44,111 nt of DNA. Source: a phage. The notes beneath the pieces were generated by a model that ran no database searches, was not told the origin of the DNA, and saw only the letters and a list, made by a program, of their open reading frames with translations. The DNA is taken from the sequence record PZ379076.1; one strand, written 5' to 3'. Shown one piece after another: positions 240 to 44,111 of this stretch (position 1 is the stretch's first letter; each line of letters begins with the position of its first letter). The position numbers were made by a program, and so were the translations under genes.

Positions 240-268
240 CCCGGCCCTGACCCAGCCGGGATTTTTTT
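240..268 (+). terminator. rho-independent terminator after the lysis genes
   Basis: Stem cccggc (240-245) / gccggg (255-260), 9-nt loop, then a run of 7 T (262-268). Confidence 0.75.
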
Positions 269-7862: not shown

Positions 7863-7891
7863 TTGACTTTTCACTAAAAATATGATAAGCT
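7863..7891 (+). promoter_or_regulatory. promoter of conserved element copy 1
   Basis: TTGACT (7863-7868), 17-nt spacer, TAAGCT (7886-7891); same arrangement at 39678-39706. Confidence 0.45.
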
Positions 7892-8000
7892 CCACCTGAG
7901 CTTGTGAAGTATGAACAAGCGACCGCGGCGCGGGCAGGTAACGGAGCGGGACGTAAGTCCTGAGTGTAGTTACGCTGACGCGTTCGGAAGGGCCATACTC
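7886..8000 (+). repeat. conserved ~115-nt element, copy 1 (candidate structured RNA or leader)
   Basis: First 43 nt identical to 39701-39743, then matching with two offsetting 1-nt indels through ...TTCGGAAGGGCCATA(C/A)TCTATTG; GCTTGT/ACAAGC stem 7900-7920. Confidence 0.85.
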
Positions 8001-17457: not shown

Positions 17458-17874
17458 ATGAAACTTTCTGATTTTTATTACGAAGCTGAAGCTGAAAAGG
17501 GTGCACGTATGCCGATACCATTAAAAGACGGTACCGATTCCGGGGAATGGCTTAATGTTGTTTCTCCTGAGGCAGACGTTGCCGTTAAGGCTATGCGCGC
17601 GTTCACCCTTGCATACCGGGCAGTGTTAGGGAAATTAAAACCGCTTCGTGATAAGTGCGAAGAGATGAAAGATTTCTCTGAATACAACCTGAAGATGGAA
17701 GACGCGGCGACGGACCTTAACCGTCAGTTAGCGGTTGAATTGGTTAACGGGTGGAGCCTTGACGACGAATTCAATAAAGAGAATCTGAACACACTCCTGA
17801 CGCAATATAAACGACTCGCGGAACTTGTTGTTGTGTTTCATAACGAACAACTGCACCAGCTACAGGAAAAGTAG
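17458..17874 (+). CDS. tail assembly chaperone (putative, G-like)
   Basis: 138 aa immediately upstream of the tape measure gene; AAAGGA SD. Confidence 0.5.
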   Translation: MKLSDFYYEAEAEKGARMPIPLKDGTDSGEWLNVVSPEADVAVKAMRAFTLAYRAVLGKLKPLRDKCEEMKDFSEYNLKMEDAATDLNRQLAVELVNGWSLDDEFNKENLNTLLTQYKRLAELVVVFHNEQLHQLQEK

Positions 17875-17879
17875 ACGCG

Positions 17880-18239
17880 TTGCTCCAGTTCGCCCGTTGG
17901 AACTTCATAACCCGCCACAAACGGCGGGAATTTGACAGTATCGCCGATGGGCATAAAGCCGCGCTAATTGCTATGGGGGTTATGCAAGACGCGCCGGACG
18001 CAACGCAGGCCACTGGGCCGGAATGCCCCCCTGAACTACTAACCACATTTGAGAAGTACAGGGAAATTAAATTCACCCGCCGAGTGGACGACGACGGCAT
18101 CAAGATGTACCCGCGCGAGCAATTACGATGGTCAGATTTAGTGGCGTACAGCACCGTTTCAGGCCAGAATATAGGGATGTTCGAATCTGACATCATCATG
18201 AGCTTAGACGCTATTTTCGAGGGTAGAAACGATGGCTGA
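17880..18239 (+). CDS. possible -1 frameshift extension of the tail assembly chaperone (T-like)
   Basis: -1 frame open from 17844, overlapping the last 10 codons of 17458-17874 which end ...CAG GAA AAG TAG; track ORF opens on TTG. Confidence 0.3.
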   Translation: MLQFARWNFITRHKRREFDSIADGHKAALIAMGVMQDAPDATQATGPECPPELLTTFEKYREIKFTRRVDDDGIKMYPREQLRWSDLVAYSTVSGQNIGMFESDIIMSLDAIFEGRNDG

Positions 18240-19647
18240 TGTAGCTAGTTTAGTCGTAAAAGTATCAGAGCAAGGCGCGAAAGCCACATCAGACCGTCTT
18301 GATAATCTTTCAAAGTCCGCAAAAGTAGCGGGGGCCGCCGTAGCAGGCCTCGCTTCTATCGTAGCGGCTACCGCGTATAAAGCCGCCCAAGAACTAGTTG
18401 ACTCACAGCGGCAACTGGACAAGATGTCCGCCAGTTTGAAGACCTTAACCGGAAGTACCCAAGGTGCTAAACAGGCGCTAAGTATCCTGCAAGATTTTGC
18501 ACGCGACACCCCATACGGACTGGAGCAGGCGGTGGAAGGCTTCCGTAAGCTGGTGGCCCTTGGCCTTACCCCATCCGAGGAGGCGTTGCGGTCCTACGGC
18601 AATACCGCATCGGCTATGGGTAAGGACCTTAATCAGATGATTGAGGCGGTAGCCGACGCCAGTACGTTTGAGTTCGAACGCCTCAAAGAATTCGGCATCA
18701 AAGCCAAGCAGAACAAAACCGACGTAGAGTTTACGTTCCAGGGAACGACAACCGTAGTTAAGAAAAGCGCTGCCGATATTGAGCAGTATTTACTTAACAT
18801 TGGTAACGTAAATTTTGCGGGGGCTATGGCTGACCAGGCCAACACCCTTAACGGCGCTATCGCGAGTGCCAGTGACTCATGGTCGCAGCTAAAAATGACG
18901 CTTGCCACCAGTCTTGATGTTGGCGCACTTGCTGAACCTATCAGGTATATCGATGACTTGATTCAGGAATTAAACGCGTCTGTTGCTTCCGGTGAATTAG
19001 CCGCTGAAATGCAGATGTGGGGGAACATCGCGTCGGAAGTAGGAAGCGCTATCGAGATGTCATTCGACGCTGCGTTTGGCTTTGTTGGCGATGCCATCAA
19101 CGGGCTTAATGAACTGTGGGATTTCAGCAGCAAGAGTATTACGGATAGCGGAGAACAAACGGCTACTACCATCGCTGAATCCGCCGCCGATGCGCTTGAC
19201 TTCATCGCGGAAGAGTTCACCGCGATGGAGAGATTCTTTGAAGATATGGTTAAAGGCGCGCAGGACGCGGGCCGTCTTGTACGAGCCGCTTTTACCCCCG
19301 GGGAATCAGTAGACGTAGCTAAAAATATCAACTTCCAGCTTGGCCTGGCTTTGGATACCCAGCGCGATGTCGCCGACGTTACGCGTAAAAGTTTCCGCGA
19401 ACAGGTAGAAGCTCAACAGGATATTGTAGCGTTAAAACGCGCGGCGTATGACATCGATAAGGAGTCCGCAAAAGCTGAGGGGTTAAACAAATTTAAGGTA
19501 ACCGGAACTGGCGGCGGTTCTGACGATGACGGGTCAGCCGCAAAAGCCGCTAAGAAAGCGGCGGACGCGTTCGAGCGCCAGAAAAAGCGGCGGAAGACTT
19601 CTACTATCAGTCAATCCATCTTAATGATGACGTATTTCAGAAAATAG
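18232..19647 (+). CDS. tail tape measure protein, N-terminal ~470 codons (frame broken near 19580)
   Basis: Long Ala/Gln/Glu-rich helical ORF after chaperone genes; ends 20 codons after an A5 run. Confidence 0.7.
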   Translation: MADVASLVVKVSEQGAKATSDRLDNLSKSAKVAGAAVAGLASIVAATAYKAAQELVDSQRQLDKMSASLKTLTGSTQGAKQALSILQDFARDTPYGLEQAVEGFRKLVALGLTPSEEALRSYGNTASAMGKDLNQMIEAVADASTFEFERLKEFGIKAKQNKTDVEFTFQGTTTVVKKSAADIEQYLLNIGNVNFAGAMADQANTLNGAIASASDSWSQLKMTLATSLDVGALAEPIRYIDDLIQELNASVASGELAAEMQMWGNIASEVGSAIEMSFDAAFGFVGDAINGLNELWDFSSKSITDSGEQTATTIAESAADALDFIAEEFTAMERFFEDMVKGAQDAGRLVRAAFTPGESVDVAKNINFQLGLALDTQRDVADVTRKSFREQVEAQQDIVALKRAAYDIDKESAKAEGLNKFKVTGTGGGSDDDGSAAKAAKKAADAFERQKKRRKTSTISQSILMMTYFRK

Positions 19648-20570
19648 AAGCTAACCAGGAAGAGCAACTGTCTAAGTTGCAGGACTTCTATAGCAATAAG
19701 CTTCTTAGCGACCAACAGTACGAAAACGCCAAGACGCAGATTATGTTATCCGCGGAACAGGCCCGCCAGGAAGAACTGGATAAGAAAAGGAAGGAGGCCC
19801 AGGAGAATCGGCAGAAAGGCGAGGATTTCATGGCTCAGATTATGGGTCAGAACGCCACCGAGCTTGAGCTTCTGGATATTCAGGAACAGCAGAAACTGGC
19901 AGTAGCCGATAAGTACCGTGAACAGGGTCTTATTAGCGAGAAGCAGTATCAGGCCACGCTTAACGCCATCAACGAGCAGTACGCAACCAAGCGAGCCGAT
20001 GCAACGGCAACCGCTTTCGGCAACATGGCGTCCAATATTGGGTCCGCGTTAGGGGAGGCATCCGGGGCTTATAAGGCGTTCGCTATTGTACAGGCCACGA
20101 TAGCCACGTACACCGCAGCTATTGAGGCGTACAAGTCAACGGCTGCTATCCCTGTTGTTGGCCCGTTCCTGGCCCCTGTAGCCGCTGCCGCTGCCGTTGG
20201 GGCTGGTATGGCGCAGATTTCCGCTATCAGGTCCGCGCGTGAACAGGGCGGTCAGTTATCAGCCGGGCAGGCTTCTACCATCGCTGAACGCGGTAAACCA
20301 GAAGTTATCATGCCCGCTGGCGCGTCGCGTGTACGCACAGCACAGCAGATGAAAGAAATTATGGGGCAAAACGGGTCTTCTTCCGGCCCGTCTAATGTTA
20401 CCATCGTAAACAACACGAGTTCTCAAATCGGCAACGTATCCACTGAGCAAGATGATGAAGGCCGTTTGCGAATCATCATCGAGGAGCAGGTGGCTGCCTC
20501 TTTGCAGAACAGCAACAGCAAGATTAGCAAGGCCCGCAAAGCCACAAGAAATGCGCCGGGGTTTAAATAA
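19554..20570 (+). CDS. tail tape measure protein, C-terminal part in the -1 frame
   Basis: -1 frame opens at 19554 and continues with the same composition to 20570 (track ORF 19677-20570); one extra A in the run at 19582-19586 would fuse both parts. Confidence 0.6.
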   Translation, partial: ESGGRVRAPEKAAEDFYYQSIHLNDDVFQKIEANQEEQLSKLQDFYSNKLLSDQQYENAKTQIMLSAEQARQEELDKKRKEAQENRQKGEDFMAQIMGQNATELELLDIQEQQKLAVADKYREQGLISEKQYQATLNAINEQYATKRADATATAFGNMASNIGSALGEASGAYKAFAIVQATIATYTAAIEAYKSTAAIPVVGPFLAPVAAAAAVGAGMAQISAIRSAREQGGQLSAGQASTIAERGKPEVIMPAGASRVRTAQQMKEIMGQNGSSSGPSNVTIVNNTSSQIGNVSTEQDDEGRLRIIIEEQVAASLQNSNSKISKARKATRNAPGFK

Positions 20571-22854: not shown

Positions 22855-24332
22855 TCCTGCACTACACGCGAAACGCTGATGGCGCTTTCAACCGTACAAA
22901 ACACGTCGGGATGCCGATGGAGTTTGTCGTTAACCGTATCCCGGACGGCGTTCCGGTACGCGTCTATCTTGGCGAGATTGGTGATGATACTGATGTTACA
23001 GACGACTTCGACGCGCTCAAAGACGAGGACGCCGTGTACCACATTATTGAGGGCGCTGGCGGCGGCATTGGCGACGCCATCGGGAGTGTATTCAGTTTCA
23101 TCCTTAAGCCAATCGCCAAATTGTTCGGGCTAAACACAGCGGCTAACGCTAATTATTCCGCTACCAACAATCAGGCTACGTCGCCTAACAACAGTCTCAC
23201 CGACCGCTCAAACAAGCCACGACCTTATGAGCGTTCCTATGATATCTGCGGGACAGTGCAGACCATCCCCAATGACCTGATGCAGACATATAAGGTGTTT
23301 AATGCCGCGGGTGCGCTTATTGAATATGCGTACTATGACGCCGGTCGAGGGTATCTGCATATTGAGGAAGACGGTGTAACGGAGGCGGATACCCGAATCA
23401 GCGAGATAACTGGCTCGTCGGTGACGGTGTATCCCCCTTATACTTCGCCAAATAATACCAGCACCCCACAATTGCATATCGGCGACCCTATAGACCAGAA
23501 ATTGTACGTTACATTTAAAAACGCCGATGTCGATGGCGCTGTTCTTCCCGCACCTAATGACATCGCTATAGACGTGCAGGACTACACTGTCCAGCGGCAG
23601 GGAACAACAGGTGTTGTAATAGGCGATGACGCTGGTTTCGATGAGTTTTTGGCTGTCGGGGACCTGGCATATTTCGATAACGTATATGCGGACACAACTC
23701 CTGGGTCTTTAGGTAATGAGGTTAACTTAGACGGGAGGTACACTGTTCTTTCGGTTAGTGAAACCACCATTATTGTGGACGTCAGTACAAATCAATCAGT
23801 ATGGAACCAGCTAGGGGCGTCTGTGTGGTTTATAGGTGAAGAGGGTAACCATCTTATAGGCCCGGCGGACACTTACGCGGCTTCTCTCTCTGAATGGGCG
23901 TACATCACCCGCGGTACTGTCGACCGTGTTGTAGCCAATGTCGCCGCCAGCAACGGCATGTACAAATACAACGGCGACTATAACCGCGCTTCAGTGACAG
24001 TCGAACTGCAATACCAGATGGTAGATGAATTGAAACAGCCTGTAGGTGACATATTTACCGTACGAGGAACCGTAACAGGCCGGAACACGGATTACACAGG
24101 GATTACTCTTTACGGAAGTTTACCAACTGCTTCCAGATTCCGCGCCCGTATGCGTCGTGTTTCGGACACCGATAAAGATTTTGAAGGTACTGTTAGCGAC
24201 GAGGTTACTTTCACTAATCTGTATGGGCAGTCGCTGGACACAACCCCCACTACGGCAACCGTACTACCGTACACTGCGCCCGTAAACAAACCCCACGTGC
24301 AGCCGAGGTGTCCGAACCGGAACTGCGCATGA
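22845..24332 (+). CDS. tail tip protein with gpI-like N-terminal region
   Basis: 495 aa (TTG start in track); glycine-rich hydrophobic segment GAGGGIGDAIGSVFSFILKPIAKLFG as in lambda I-type proteins. Confidence 0.5.
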   Translation: MAIILHYTRNADGAFNRTKHVGMPMEFVVNRIPDGVPVRVYLGEIGDDTDVTDDFDALKDEDAVYHIIEGAGGGIGDAIGSVFSFILKPIAKLFGLNTAANANYSATNNQATSPNNSLTDRSNKPRPYERSYDICGTVQTIPNDLMQTYKVFNAAGALIEYAYYDAGRGYLHIEEDGVTEADTRISEITGSSVTVYPPYTSPNNTSTPQLHIGDPIDQKLYVTFKNADVDGAVLPAPNDIAIDVQDYTVQRQGTTGVVIGDDAGFDEFLAVGDLAYFDNVYADTTPGSLGNEVNLDGRYTVLSVSETTIIVDVSTNQSVWNQLGASVWFIGEEGNHLIGPADTYAASLSEWAYITRGTVDRVVANVAASNGMYKYNGDYNRASVTVELQYQMVDELKQPVGDIFTVRGTVTGRNTDYTGITLYGSLPTASRFRARMRRVSDTDKDFEGTVSDEVTFTNLYGQSLDTTPTTATVLPYTAPVNKPHVQPRCPNRNCA

Positions 24333-25411
24333 TTGCAACCGAGATGTGCTACAAATACTTAGGTAACGGCGTATTCGATACGGTAATGACACCGAACACT
24401 CAGGCCGTGCAGTCGCTAATCAGGCTGGCGCGTGACCCTGTGGTGGGTAATCTGGAACTGACAACGGCAAATATGGACAAGTTACTTGCCGTGCAGGAAG
24501 AAATTGAGTCGTATTTTGACAGTGAATTAGCCGGGCAGTTCTGCTACACATTCGACGACTACGACACAACCATGCAAGACATCGTTCAGACCATCGCGGA
24601 AGCCGTGTTTTGTACGGCATACCGTAAAGGTGCTGATATTATGCTGCGATTCGACCGTCCTGTTGCGGGGCCTGAGATGGTTTTCACCCACCGCAGCAAA
24701 ACGACCGGTACGGAGAAATGGACGCGCACGTTCAACGATTCGACAACCTACGATAGCCTGTCGTTCTCGTACATTGACCCGGATACAAACGTACAGGAGA
24801 CGATTTATATCCCGGAAGAACTCGGCGCGAACACCGAGGAGTACGAATCGAAGGGTGTACGTAACTATCAGCAAGCGTACTGGCTGGCGTGGCGTCGCTA
24901 CCAGCGCAACACGTTAAGTAAAGTTGTCGTAGAGTTCGAAGCTACCGAAGAAGGCGCTCTCGCTACTCCCGGCGGCGTAATCAGTGTGGTTAAAGGCTCG
25001 CGTATCGCGCCGCAGGATGGTTATGTTGTTGCCGTCAATGGCCTTACGCTGACGCTGTCTCAGCCTGTTACGTTTACTCCTGGTGATGACCATTCCATCA
25101 TCCTCAAGAAGCGCGACGGCTCTGTGCAGAGTATTTCTGTTATCAAAGGAAGCCACGACCGCGAAGTGATTATGCTCTCCGCGCCGGAGGAGGCAATCTA
25201 CACGGGGAATAGCGCACTAAAAACTGAGTTTTCATTCGGCAACGAAGCAAGGCATAATGCTCAGAAGATAGTTGTTTCTTCAATCGACCCCGGCGACGAC
25301 CGCACGGTCAAGATTACTGGTTACAACTATGACGACGGATTCTATAAATACGACGGCGTCGCGCCATACGGCAGCAGCTTCTCCGACGGATTCAGCAATG
25401 GTTTTAATTAA
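24329..25411 (+). CDS. tail tip / host specificity region protein (hypothetical)
   Basis: ATG 24329 overlaps the upstream TGA (ATGA); track ORF 24308-25411 opens on GTG. Confidence 0.5.
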   Translation: MIATEMCYKYLGNGVFDTVMTPNTQAVQSLIRLARDPVVGNLELTTANMDKLLAVQEEIESYFDSELAGQFCYTFDDYDTTMQDIVQTIAEAVFCTAYRKGADIMLRFDRPVAGPEMVFTHRSKTTGTEKWTRTFNDSTTYDSLSFSYIDPDTNVQETIYIPEELGANTEEYESKGVRNYQQAYWLAWRRYQRNTLSKVVVEFEATEEGALATPGGVISVVKGSRIAPQDGYVVAVNGLTLTLSQPVTFTPGDDHSIILKKRDGSVQSISVIKGSHDREVIMLSAPEEAIYTGNSALKTEFSFGNEARHNAQKIVVSSIDPGDDRTVKITGYNYDDGFYKYDGVAPYGSSFSDGFSNGFN

Positions 25412-27437: not shown

Positions 27438-27575
27438 CTACTCTTCTGATAACTTCTCCAGTACAAACGCCAGTTGCGCATTAGCGGCGTCTCTTTGCTG
27501 ACGTAGCCGCAGAACCTCTTCTTCGAGTTCCTTGATACGTTTTTGCAATGCCGGAATTGGGGCTATGATGTTCAT
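27438..27575 (-). CDS. hypothetical small coiled-coil protein (45 aa)
   Basis: ATG 27575 overlaps upstream stop (ATGA); translation MNIIAPIPALQKRIKELEEEVLRLRQQRDAANAQL...; below track cut-off. Confidence 0.4.
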   Translation of the reverse strand: MNIIAPIPALQKRIKELEEEVLRLRQQRDAANAQLAFVLEKLSEE

Positions 27576-28087
27576 CTGGTAAATTTCCTCGCAAGATACG
27601 TTATTTCTTCTTCACAAAGTTCATCAAGGTCGTTAGATACAAATCCTCTGGTGAATGTTTTGCTGAACTTTAATCCAGCTTTATCATTGTCGCCAGCGCA
27701 CACCCAGTCATACGGCAAAAGTGACATTTGCTGCCGTAGGTCTGTTGATATATTTGACCCCAGTGCGCTTACAGCATTGAACCCGCAATTCATCAAGGCT
27801 ACGGCTTTGAATATGCTTTCGGTAACAAATACCACCCCGCTTTCCGGCAAATACTCAAGCCCCCATAAACACGGCCTTGTTGTTCTGGTAAAGTACCGCG
27901 CGTCTTTAGGGTTTTTACAGTTCTTTTCGGCATGTGGTTTGTAATGCTGGTATCCGCGAAGCCTACCGTCAAACCCCCACAGGTAAAACGTAGCTACTCC
28001 AGGGGCTAAGACTACCTGGAGACGGTCAGCGTCAAACCCACGCGCCAGCAGATGAGCTTTAAGTAGAAACTCTTCGAAATCCATCAT
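27572..28087 (-). CDS. Toprim-domain protein (primase-like)
   Basis: 171 aa; ...VFVTESIFKAVALMNCGF...WVCAGDNDKAG gives the conserved Glu and DxD of the Toprim fold. Confidence 0.55.
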   Translation of the reverse strand: MMDFEEFLLKAHLLARGFDADRLQVVLAPGVATFYLWGFDGRLRGYQHYKPHAEKNCKNPKDARYFTRTTRPCLWGLEYLPESGVVFVTESIFKAVALMNCGFNAVSALGSNISTDLRQQMSLLPYDWVCAGDNDKAGLKFSKTFTRGFVSNDLDELCEEEITYLARKFTR

Positions 28088-29430
28088 TTCTTACCTCGTC
28101 TCTTCATGTAATTAAGCAACTCTTCCTGTACCGATTTCTTCTCGTCGGTACGCGCGGCGACAACCTCGTCCAGAGTGTCTTTAGCAACGATGTGATAAAG
28201 GAACACCGGGCGCTCGTGTCCTGCTTGCTTCTGGCGTACCGGGCCTATACGCTCGACAACCTGCAAATAGTGCTCAAGGTTCCAGCCTTGCGAGATGAAC
28301 GCCAGATGATGTCCGCCGTCCTGTAAATTCAAACCATGACCGGCTGACGCAGGATGTACGCATAGGATTTCGATTTCACCGCGGTTCCACGCTTCCATCT
28401 GCTTATTACCCTTAGCGCCTTTTGCAAACGCCTGGGCCTGCGGGAATCGCTTAAGGATGCGCTCCAGTTCGTGCTTAAACTGATAGGCCACCAGTAGCGG
28501 CGCTCCCTGTAACTCCTCCACAATGGACTCGAGCGCATCCAGTTTCGTGTCGTGCACTTTCTCCCAGTCTTTGGTCGCTTCGCCATCCGGCCCTGACACA
28601 TACACGGCACCAGATGCAATCTGCAAGCACTTTGAGGTCTTCGCCGCAGCGTTAGCCGCTTCAACTTCCCCGCTCTCCAGTTCTGCGAATAACTTCTCCT
28701 CCATATCTATGTACGCCTGACGCGCTTTCTTCGGCAGGTCTATTTCCACCGGTACGATAACAGGCGCTTCACAACCAAACCACTCGGCAGGGTCTATGGT
28801 CAGGCTGATGTCTTTCATCTTCTGATGAATCTCATTATCCGCACCCGGTCGTGCATGATACTCGCGGGCCATAGCCGATTTACCTTTCTGTACCGAGTTA
28901 AACCAGCGGTCGGTGAATGCTGTGTACGAAGAGCCGAGGCGCTCGCCAGCGTCGATAAACCAGTTCTGACCCCACAAGTCTTTGAGGCCGTTTGGTGACG
29001 GTGTGCCTGTCAGGTTGATGAAACGCTTAACCTTTCCGAACGCAACCTTGCTGAGCGCCTTTGCCCGCTTGCTACCACCCGAACGGCTGCGGAACGATTT
29101 AAGCTTCGTGCTTTCATCGGCAACGATAACCGTAAAAGGCCAGTCGTCTTTGCCGTAGTAGTCAATTAGCCACTCGATAACTTCGTAGTTAGTGCACACC
29201 ACGTTAGCATCTGACTCCAGCGCTGCGATGCGGCGCTTCTCCGAACCAGTTGCATCTACGACACGCAGACAAGGGAATTGCCATTTCTCTTGTTCAGCGG
29301 GCCACGTACCGGACGCAACACGTAACGGGGCAAGGATTAACACGCGGTCCTCTTCCGTAAGCTGCCCGTTGCGGAACAGGCGGTTGAGCACCCACATAGT
29401 GGAGGAGGTTTTACCTCCCCCATTCCGCAC
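28084..29430 (-). CDS. SNF2/SF2-family helicase, as called in this frame (N-terminus displaced by a frameshift)
   Basis: 448 aa; GGGKTS (motif I), VIVADESTKLK (DExx), LTGTPSPN (motif III), late HPASAGHGLNLQ; track ORF starts on GTG just downstream of a C5/G5 run. Confidence 0.8.
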   Translation of the reverse strand: MRNGGGKTSSTMWVLNRLFRNGQLTEEDRVLILAPLRVASGTWPAEQEKWQFPCLRVVDATGSEKRRIAALESDANVVCTNYEVIEWLIDYYGKDDWPFTVIVADESTKLKSFRSRSGGSKRAKALSKVAFGKVKRFINLTGTPSPNGLKDLWGQNWFIDAGERLGSSYTAFTDRWFNSVQKGKSAMAREYHARPGADNEIHQKMKDISLTIDPAEWFGCEAPVIVPVEIDLPKKARQAYIDMEEKLFAELESGEVEAANAAAKTSKCLQIASGAVYVSGPDGEATKDWEKVHDTKLDALESIVEELQGAPLLVAYQFKHELERILKRFPQAQAFAKGAKGNKQMEAWNRGEIEILCVHPASAGHGLNLQDGGHHLAFISQGWNLEHYLQVVERIGPVRQKQAGHERPVFLYHIVAKDTLDEVVAARTDEKKSVQEELLNYMKRRGKK

Positions 29431-29507
29431 CAGATATTACAGCGCGGGTGTTGCAGCATGAACGAAGTCATGAGCTTCTGGTACTCTCGACGGATAAATT
29501 TAGACAT
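29337..29507 (-). pseudogene. N-terminal fragment of the same helicase in the other frame
   Basis: ATG 29507, translation MSKFIRREYQKLMTSFMLQHPRCNIWCGMG... carries the Q-motif (REYQ) and the start of the P-loop; frames swap at the run 29417-29421. Confidence 0.55.
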
Positions 29508-33238: not shown

Positions 33239-33293
33239 TTCTCGATTCCTCAGTTTTCAGTTTACTCCGGGAGCTGCCCGGCCAGTGATTAGA

Positions 33294-39677: not shown

Positions 39678-39706
39678 TTGACTTTTACTAAGAAATGTGC
39701 TAAGCT
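39678..39706 (+). promoter_or_regulatory. promoter of conserved element copy 2
   Basis: TTGACT (39678-39683), 17-nt spacer, TAAGCT (39701-39706). Confidence 0.45.
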
Positions 39707-39815
39707 CCACCTGAGCTTGTGAAGTATGAACAAGCGACCGCGGTGCGGCAGGAAACGGAGCGGTGCGTCAGCACTGAGTGTAGTGTCGCTGCCTGCATTC
39801 GGAAGGGCCATAATC
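39701..39815 (+). repeat. conserved ~115-nt element, copy 2
   Basis: Matches 7886-8000; stem-loop GGUGC-gtca-GCACU at 39762-39775 replaces GGGAC-gtaa-GUCCU of copy 1. Confidence 0.85.
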
Positions 39816-43553: not shown

Positions 43554-43818
43554 GTTATTCTGGTTTGGTGGTATGCTCGCAATCGGGAGCACATCGCTGT
43601 TTAACGTATACCACCCCAGCGTAGATGATGGCCTGTTCGGGCGTGTGCTTTATATTCTGACTGCTATTGTCTGCGCCGCCGGATGTATCCACCTGTTACA
43701 GGGCAGCATGTCACCTACGTTGCCTGAGACATTAATCACTTTAGTTGCGCTGCGCCAGATTCGTCAGGCGTGGCTGTCGTACGGAGGACATAAGCGTGTC
43801 TCGAAACATTTCAGATAA
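43546..43818 (+). CDS. second small membrane protein of the lysis cassette (holin/antiholin candidate)
   Basis: ATG 43546 inside track ORF 43465-43818; two hydrophobic helices; overlaps neighbours. Confidence 0.45.
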   Translation: MNELFWFGGMLAIGSTSLFNVYHPSVDDGLFGRVLYILTAIVCAAGCIHLLQGSMSPTLPETLITLVALRQIRQAWLSYGGHKRVSKHFR

Positions 43819-44111
43819 TGGGTTGCATTTCACCGCAGCGTTTGAGGGGTTCCGCGGAACTGCGTATCGTGCTACGCCAAATGAGAAGTACCTGACTATT
43901 GGGTACGGTCATTATGGGCCAGACGTAACGCCAGGCAAGACCATCACCCCGGGACAAGGCCTCCTGTTACTGAATCGTGATATGGCTAAGGCCGTAGCTG
44001 CGGTTGACGCAGCAGCACACCATTCATTGACACAGGCACAGTTCGACGCAGTGTGCGACCTGGTGTATAACGCGGGTGCCGGTGTGATTGCGGCTACTAC
44101 TGGCACAGGTA
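43796..44111 (+). CDS. endolysin (lysozyme-like), N-terminal part; 3' end at window positions 1-173
   Basis: GTG 43796 with GGAGGA SD; translation ...AAFEGFRGTAYRATPNEKYLTIGYGHYG... resembles the catalytic E...TIGYGH region of phage lysozymes; runs off the window end in frame with 1-173. Confidence 0.7.
   Translation, partial: MSRNISDNGLHFTAAFEGFRGTAYRATPNEKYLTIGYGHYGPDVTPGKTITPGQGLLLLNRDMAKAVAAVDAAAHHSLTQAQFDAVCDLVYNAGAGVIAATTGTG

What the first reader, a model, noticed from the sequence alone, without database searches (positions are those of the whole stretch)
29337..29507. SNF2-type helicase gene split by a frameshift at a C5/G5 homopolymer
The N-terminal 28 codons (MSKFIRREYQKLMTSFMLQHPRCNIWCGMG, with the Q-motif) are in one frame and the rest of the helicase (from GGGKTSS on) in another; the switch is exactly at the run 29417-29421. 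One extra G on the coding strand would give a continuous ...NIWCGMGGGKTSS... with an intact P-loop. Either a homopolymer sequencing error, a real inactivating mutation, or slippage-dependent expression.
Basis: seen in the sequence. Interest (0 to 1): 0.55.

Follow-up and report, generated by a model that had tools for sequence, protein, structure and literature searches.

The report
Helicase gene split: likely sequencing error
A phage helicase gene looks broken because one G is missing from a run of six, but no related phage shares the break and two indispensable tail genes in the same genome are broken the same way, so this is almost certainly a sequencing or assembly error and not biology.

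Summary
On the minus strand, the ORF starting at ATG 29507 encodes the first 30 residues of an SNF2-type helicase. The rest (28084-29430) lies in the -1 frame. The switch is at the G5 run 29421-29417 (C5 on the plus strand). Adding one G gives a 474-aa protein that is 473/474 identical to the helicase of Escherichia phage SHAK7858 and has an intact GMGGGKT P-loop.

The window is a complete ~44.1-kb Kagunavirus genome (Guernseyvirinae, Jersey-like siphovirus). Every relative examined has an uninterrupted 1425-nt helicase gene. The exact G5 32-mer gave no match in IMG/VR, JGI metagenomes or GTDB genomes, and no phage record matched the 81-nt stretch around the run without a one-base gap. The run is not conserved: relatives encode the same glycines as GGGGGAGGT, GGAGGGGGT, GGCGGCGGC or GGTGCGGGC.

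Two other large genes in the window, the tape measure (19587) and the tail protein (24244-24248), are also split by one-base deletions that no relative shares. All three repaired genes show mostly third-position substitutions. A plaque-forming phage cannot lack a tape measure and a tail-tip protein.

The split is therefore most probably a record-level sequencing or assembly artefact (~0.87). A real, very recent mutation is unlikely. Programmed slippage is effectively excluded. Interest is low.

The parts
29418..29507 (-). Helicase codons 1-30 (MSKFIRREYQKLMTSFMLQHPRCNIWCGMG) in the upstream frame. As written, this frame runs on to a stop codon at 29339-29337.
   Evidence: tblastn places residues 1-30 in frame -1 at 100% identity.
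29417..29421 (-). G5 run (C5 on the plus strand) where the frame changes. The closest relatives have G6 here (ATG GGG GGA GGT AAA = M-G-G-G-K of Walker A).
   Evidence: Alignments. The whole-genome gap list shows a 1-nt gap at window ~29417.
28084..29430 (-). Downstream ORF (448 aa, mechanical GTG start) holding helicase residues 30/31-474: the remainder of the P-loop (GGKT), ADEST (motif II), LTGTP (motif III) and the C-terminal helicase lobe. It overlaps the start of the Toprim gene by 4 nt.
29400..29422 (-). Perfect 10-bp hairpin (TGGGGGAGGT-AAA-ACCTCCTCCA) that contains the G run. It may favour slippage or base-calling trouble, but it is not placed like a frameshift stimulator.
   Evidence: DNA fold -9.9 kcal/mol, z = -5.0, 0 of 200 shuffles as stable. 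RNA fold.
19587..19587 (+). Second frame-breaking 1-nt deletion in the same record (AAAAAG-CGG; relatives have AAAAAGGCGG). It splits the tape-measure gene into 18232-19647 and 19677-20570 (coding continues from ~19581).
   Evidence: All 17 related records carry one more base. The repaired gene is 779 aa, equal to SHAK7858.
24244..24248 (+). Third frame-breaking 1-nt deletion (C5; relatives have C6). It splits the 833-aa tail protein gene into 22911-24332 and 24245/24308-25411.
   Evidence: All 9 related records carry one more base. The repaired gene is 833 aa.

Best explanation
The gene is the ordinary, single-ORF SNF2-family helicase of a Kagunavirus replication module (DNA polymerase A, VRR-NUC nuclease, small ORF, helicase, Toprim protein). 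In this record one G of a G6 run, the run that encodes the two glycines of the Walker-A loop GMGGGKT, is missing. The most likely cause is a base-calling or assembly error at a G/C homopolymer: a run-length under-call, possibly helped by the 10-bp hairpin the run sits in. The real phage most probably has G6 and makes a normal 474-aa helicase. Shown here: the deletion, its absence from every relative examined, the two sister deletions in essential tail genes, and the lack of any decay. Inferred: that the cause is technical, because the reads are not available.
For: (1) The deletion is found only in this record. All 21 phage records that match the 81-nt stretch full-length span 82 nt, and 14 of them differ only by the extra G. 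Thirteen aligned relatives are all in frame. Ten further contigs from NCBI, JGI, ENA and Logan that encode an identical Toprim protein all carry a 1425-nt, 474-aa helicase gene. The exact G5 32-mer has 0 matches in IMG/VR, JGI metagenomes and GTDB genomes. The G6 33-mer has 2 matches in IMG/VR and 1 in the metagenomes. (2) The same record has two more such deletions. A tblastn scan with 83 SHAK7858 proteins finds exactly three genes split into abutting frames: tape measure, tail protein and helicase. At both other sites every related record has one more base. Tape measure and distal tail protein are indispensable for siphovirus tail assembly (established knowledge), so the record as written cannot describe a viable phage. 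(3) There is no decay. After adding one base each, the three genes are exactly 474, 779 and 833 aa with no stops. Differences from SHAK7858 downstream of the breaks fall at third codon positions in 36/39, 76/81 and 8/9 cases. (4) Length changes are concentrated in the longest G/C runs. Two of the three C6 runs in the aligned SHAK7858 sequence are C5 in the window, while none of about 350 runs of 4-5 nt changed length by one base.
Against: No reads, quality values or platform information are available, so the error is inferred and not observed. Real replication slippage is also run-length dependent, so point (4) alone does not separate error from mutation. One of the three sites (19587) is only a GG to G change after A5, not a long homopolymer. 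Two other 1-nt differences from SHAK7858 (T8/T7 at 262-268 and A2/A1 at 33272) proved to be natural polymorphisms shared with other phages. They do not support an error-prone assembly.
Confidence: 0.87

Rival explanations
1. A real, very recent inactivating slippage mutation. The sequenced DNA truly carries G5, for example in a defective sub-population, in a lysate with complementing wild-type genomes, or in a phage where the SNF2 helicase is dispensable.
For: G6 runs inside a hairpin are natural slippage hot spots. The absence of decay also fits a mutation that is only generations old. Whether this helicase is essential in Guernseyvirinae was not tested here.
Against: It would have to coincide with two other frame-breaking deletions, also absent from every relative, in genes no siphovirus can lack. 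No other public sequence carries the G5 allele. The helicase is conserved at 474 aa across Kagunavirus and Jerseyvirus under strong purifying selection, which argues that it is needed.
Confidence: 0.09
2. Slippage-dependent expression. The gene is genuinely two-frame, and the full helicase is made by a -1 ribosomal frameshift on G GGG G or by transcriptional insertion of a G.
For: A -1 shift on the run would give exactly ...CGMGGGKT... (seen directly in the sequence). A stable hairpin is present.
Against: No relative has the two-frame arrangement. The run is not conserved: the same glycines are encoded as GGA GGG GGT, GGC GGC GGC, GGT GCG GGC and others. G GGG GAG is not a canonical X XXY YYZ heptamer. 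The hairpin includes the run itself, not a position 5-9 nt downstream. Known transcriptional slippage needs much longer runs, usually of A or T (established knowledge). Any 1-nt deletion in a homopolymer is trivially 'repairable' by a -1 slip, as the other two broken genes in this record also are.
Confidence: 0.02

Closest known systems
DNA helicase of Escherichia phage vB_EcoM_SHAK7858 (WVW77798.1, OR594183.1), and the equivalent 474-aa helicases of KMB36, L AB-2017, fBC-Eco01 and Jerseyvirus phages
   Same: Same position and synteny: the 64-aa ORF, then the helicase, then the Toprim gene with a 4-nt overlap. Same length once repaired. 473/474 residues identical to SHAK7858.
   Different: The window lacks one G of the G6 run, so the gene reads as a 56-aa ORF plus a 448-aa ORF.
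SNF2/Swi2 family of SF2 ATPases (Pfam PF00176; yeast Snf2 6iy2, Sulfolobus Rad54-like 1z63)
   Same: The repaired protein matches SNF2-rel_dom above threshold. It aligns with Snf2 across MG(L/G)GKT, DE(G/S), and LTGTP...LW.
   Different: It is much smaller (474 aa) and has no accessory chromatin-binding domains. Helicase_C scores just below the Pfam cut-off (20.0 against 23.5 bits). Its role in phage replication or recombination has not been tested.
Programmed -1 frameshifts of phage genes (lambda G/GT tail chaperone, dnaX-type A AAA AAG)
   Same: Two overlapping frames that a -1 slip on a repetitive run could join.
   Different: There is no conserved slippery site, no conserved two-ORF arrangement and no correctly spaced stimulator. 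This is not a member of that class.
Homopolymer indel errors in phage and bacterial assemblies (run-length under-calls of flow-based and nanopore platforms, GC-hairpin compressions in Sanger reads; named from general knowledge, not tested here)
   Same: Single-base deletions at G/C runs, found only in one record, that break otherwise perfectly conserved ORFs, with several in the same assembly.
   Different: The platform and reads are unknown. One of the three sites is only a GG dinucleotide after A5.

Membership tests
SNF2-family helicase/ATPase | Match to the SNF2-related N-terminal ATPase domain above the curated threshold | tested here: met
   PF00176 scores 48.7 bits against a cut-off of 24.9 on the repaired protein, and 45.3 bits on the downstream ORF alone.
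SNF2-family helicase/ATPase | Intact Walker A (motif I, GxGKT) in one reading frame | tested here: not met
   As written, the motif is split between frames...CGMG in one frame, GGKT in the other. It is intact (GMGGGKT) only after one G is added. It is intact in all relatives.
SNF2-family helicase/ATPase | Motif II (DExx) and the SNF2-typical motif III (LTGTP) | tested here: met
   ADEST aligns with the DEGHR stretch and LTGTP with LTGTP of yeast Snf2 in the phmmer alignment.
SNF2-family helicase/ATPase | C-terminal RecA-like lobe (Helicase_C) | tested here: inconclusive
   PF00271 scores 20.0 bits, below the 23.5 cut-off. A weak second domain aligns to Snf2. phrog_62 'DNA helicase' covers residues 2-473 with E 5e-167.
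Programmed -1 ribosomal frameshift | Two-frame arrangement conserved in related genomes | tested here: not met
   All 21 phage records, 13 aligned loci and 10 further contigs are single-frame.
Programmed -1 ribosomal frameshift | Conserved slippery heptamer X XXY YYZ | tested here: not met
   The site is G GGG GAG. Relatives have GGAGGGGGT, GGCGGCGGC, GGTGCGGGC and other versions.
Programmed -1 ribosomal frameshift | Stimulatory structure a few nucleotides downstream of the slip site | tested here: not met
   The only strong hairpin (29422-29400) contains the run itself.
Sequencing/assembly homopolymer artefact | Indel found only in this record, at a homopolymer, restoring a conserved ORF when reverted | tested here: met
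Sequencing/assembly homopolymer artefact | Other such frame breaks in essential genes of the same assembly | tested here: met
   Tape measure and tail protein are broken the same way.
Sequencing/assembly homopolymer artefact | Read-level evidence (mixed or low-quality calls at the run; a platform prone to such errors) | not testable with these tools
   No reads or metadata are available. The window's own proteins are absent from the public protein collection.

The most novel reading that the evidence does not exclude
The G5 allele is real in a viable phage, and the helicase is produced, or its amount tuned, by -1 slippage on the G run embedded in the 10-bp hairpin. That would be a strain-specific, phase-variable replication helicase.
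Probability: 0.02. Interest if true: 0.5.

Novelty: not a real feature. Interest (0 to 1): 0.06.

Why it matters
The matter is mainly one of data quality. As written, the record would be annotated with a truncated or pseudogenised helicase, tape measure and tail protein. That would mislead gene-content comparisons and any search for programmed frameshifts or 'split' helicases. Flagging the three sites lets the record be corrected. No new biology is implied: the underlying gene is the well-conserved SNF2-type helicase of Guernseyvirinae phages.

Tried and rejected
1. Programmed or transcriptional slippage. Rejected because neither the run nor the two-frame layout is conserved and the hairpin is in the wrong place.

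2. Counting all five clean 1-nt differences from SHAK7858 as errors. Rejected after searches showed that the two intergenic ones (262-268 and 33272) are shared with other phages and are natural polymorphisms.

3. A general link between local hairpins and the deletions. Only the helicase site lies in a significant hairpin; the other two sites fold no better than shuffles.

4. The possibility that BPS11Q3 shares the split, since its helicase is annotated at 446 aa. Rejected: its DNA is in frame, and the annotator simply chose the internal ATG.

5. Finding the window's own record, or independent assemblies of the same phage, by exact protein look-up of the tailspike, DNA polymerase and the fragment ORFs. 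Nothing is on record.

6. Literature searches for 'Kagunavirus' with 'frameshift', and for '44111 bp' with 'phage'. Both returned no papers.

Full report
**What is in the sequence.** On the minus strand the window reads ...AAT ATC TGG TGC GGA ATG GGG GAG GTA AAA CCT CCT.... An ORF starting at ATG 29507 encodes MSKFIRREYQKLMTSFMLQHPRCNIWCGMG and then runs out of frame to a stop codon at 29339-29337. A 448-aa ORF (28084-29430) in the -1 frame starts with (GTG)MRNGGGKTSS. Adding one G gives a 1425-nt ORF of 474 aa with the P-loop GMGGGKT and no internal stop.

**What the gene is.**
- The repaired protein matches Pfam SNF2-rel_dom at 48.7 bits against a cut-off of 24.9.
- It matches Helicase_C just below its cut-off.
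- It matches phrog_62 'DNA helicase' over residues 2-473 in one stretch.
- It aligns with yeast Snf2 continuously across the junction, including MGxGKT, DE and LTGTP.
- The neighbouring genes are a Toprim-like protein (27572-28087, 4-nt overlap), a 64-aa ORF, a VRR-NUC nuclease and a family-A DNA polymerase.

**What the window is.** It is a complete, circularly permuted genome of about 44.1 kb. It is roughly 95% identical to Escherichia phage SHAK7858 and similar to many Kagunavirus records (Guernseyvirinae).

**Comparison with relatives at the helicase site.**
- In SHAK7858, KMB36, L AB-2017 and fBC-Eco01 the helicase is annotated as one 1425-nt CDS.
- The alignment shows that the window differs from SHAK7858 and KMB36 only by the missing G: ATG GGG GGA GGT in them, ATG GGG GAG GT in the window.
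- An 81-nt query centred on the run found 21 full-length matches among 50,697 phage records. All span 82 nt, 14 of them are otherwise identical, and none has G5.
- Thirteen aligned loci, including Jerseyvirus phages, are all in frame. They encode the Walker-A glycines variously as GGGGGAGGT, GGAGGGGGT, GGCGGCGGC, GGTGCGGGC, GGCGCCGGC and GGTGCCGGG. The homopolymer is therefore a codon-choice accident of one sub-clade, not a conserved element.
- Ten further contigs from NCBI, JGI, ENA and Logan that encode a Toprim protein identical to the window's all carry a 474-aa helicase gene. Five have G6 and five have GGAGGGGGT.
- The exact G5 32-mer occurs nowhere in IMG/VR, JGI metagenomes or GTDB genomes. 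The G6 33-mer occurs in two IMG/VR contigs and one metagenome contig.

**The rest of the genome.** A gap list from the whole-genome alignment with SHAK7858 and a tblastn scan with its 83 proteins show that exactly three genes are split into two abutting frames.

| Gene | Length in SHAK7858 | Break in the window | Change |
|---|---|---|---|
| Helicase | 474 aa | 29417-29421 | G6 to G5 on the coding strand (C6 to C5 on the plus strand) |
| Tape measure | 779 aa | 19587 | AAAAAGG to AAAAAG |
| Tail protein | 833 aa | 24244-24248 | C6 to C5 |

- The ORF list confirms both tail-gene splits.
- At both tail-gene sites every related record (17 and 9 records) has one more base than the window.
- After adding one base at each site, the three genes have exactly the SHAK7858 lengths and no stops.
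- Downstream of the breaks, differences from SHAK7858 are overwhelmingly at third codon positions: 36/39 for the helicase, 76/81 for the tape measure and 8/9 for the tail protein. These frames were under purifying selection through essentially all of the divergence.
- Two of the three C6 runs in the aligned SHAK7858 sequence are C5 in the window. None of about 350 runs of 4-5 nt changed length by one base.

**Interpretation.** Tape measure and distal tail protein are indispensable for siphovirus assembly (established knowledge), so the record as written cannot be a viable phage. The simplest account is that all three deletions are base-calling or assembly errors, and that the real phage has G6 and a normal helicase. 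I put this at about 0.87.

A real, very recent slippage mutation in the helicase cannot be excluded without reads. It would have to coincide with two impossible mutations in the same record, so I put it at about 0.09.

Programmed frameshifting or transcriptional slippage is rejected, at about 0.02, for these reasons:
- The two-frame layout is absent from all relatives.
- The run is not conserved.
- G GGG GAG is not a canonical heptamer.
- The only strong structure is a 10-bp hairpin, 29422-29413 paired with 29409-29400 (z = -5.0). It contains the run itself and does not lie downstream of it.
- Any 1-nt deletion in a homopolymer looks 'repairable' by a -1 slip, and that includes the other two broken genes.

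**Checks that narrowed the argument.** Two more 1-nt differences from SHAK7858, T8/T7 at 262-268 and A2/A1 at 33272, are shared with other phages. They are natural polymorphisms, so they are not counted as errors. Only the helicase site lies in a significant hairpin, so a structure-induced artefact cannot be the general cause. The window's own record could not be found: its tailspike, polymerase and fragment ORFs are absent from the 15-billion-protein collection. No literature on a Kagunavirus frameshift was found.

**Verdict.** The feature is not biological, and interest is low. The useful outcome is that three sites in this record (29417-29421, 19587, 24244-24248) should be re-checked and most probably corrected.

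Noticed in passing
window 18232-20570 (break at 19587): The tape-measure gene is split into 471-aa and ~297-aa ORFs by a 1-nt deletion (AAAAAG-CGG against AAAAAGGCGG in all 17 related records). The repaired gene is 779 aa.
   Followed up: yes
window 22911-25411 (break at 24244-24248): The tail (tip/host-specificity) protein gene is split by a C6-to-C5 deletion that none of the 9 related records shares. The repaired gene is 833 aa.
   Followed up: yes
window 43802-44111 and 1-170: The window is a complete, circularly permuted genome whose ends cut the endolysin gene. tblastn places residues 2-104 at the 3' end of the window and residues 106-161 at the 5' end.
   Followed up: partly
window 7863-7933 and 39678-39748: A 71-nt direct repeat (89% identity) starts with a sigma-70-like promoter (TTGACT, 17 nt, TAAGCT with an upstream TG) followed by a conserved leader. 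Both copies are also present in SHAK7858. It is probably a duplicated promoter and leader.
   Followed up: no
window 17458-17874 and 17880-18239: The tail-assembly-chaperone ORF is followed by an ORF in the -1 frame that stays open across the stop codon (…CAG GAA AAG TAG…). This is the layout of the conserved G/GT-type programmed -1 frameshift upstream of tape-measure genes, and is likely the one genuine frameshift in this genome.
   Followed up: no
L005 (OR594183.1, Escherichia phage vB_EcoM_SHAK7858): GenBank files this phage under Autographiviridae/Kayfunavirus and names it as a myovirus ('EcoM'). Yet it is ~95% identical to the window and to Kagunavirus siphoviruses, which suggests the record's taxonomy is wrong.
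   Followed up: no
L012 (KX405002.1, Salmonella phage BPS11Q3), locus 334-418: The helicase is annotated from the internal ATG of the Walker-A 'M' (446 aa), although the frame is open from the upstream ATG used in other records. This is an annotation inconsistency, not a frameshift.
   Followed up: partly
window 29400-29422 (minus strand): The Walker-A coding sequence of the G6 clade forms a perfect 10-bp hairpin with an AAA loop (DNA z-score -5.0). It may be a local hot spot for slippage or for sequencing trouble.
   Followed up: partly
window ~27413: SHAK7858 carries an extra 11-nt tandem copy (TAGGGCCCCTA) in the intergenic region downstream of the tailspike gene, between it and the convergent replication-gene block. 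This is natural indel variation in what is likely a terminator region.
   Followed up: no
window 262-268 and 33272: These are single-base length differences from SHAK7858 (T7 against T8; A against AA) in intergenic DNA. Other phages share the window's state (SZH-1; BUCT825, 22664BS2, KMB36), so they are real polymorphisms.
   Followed up: yes
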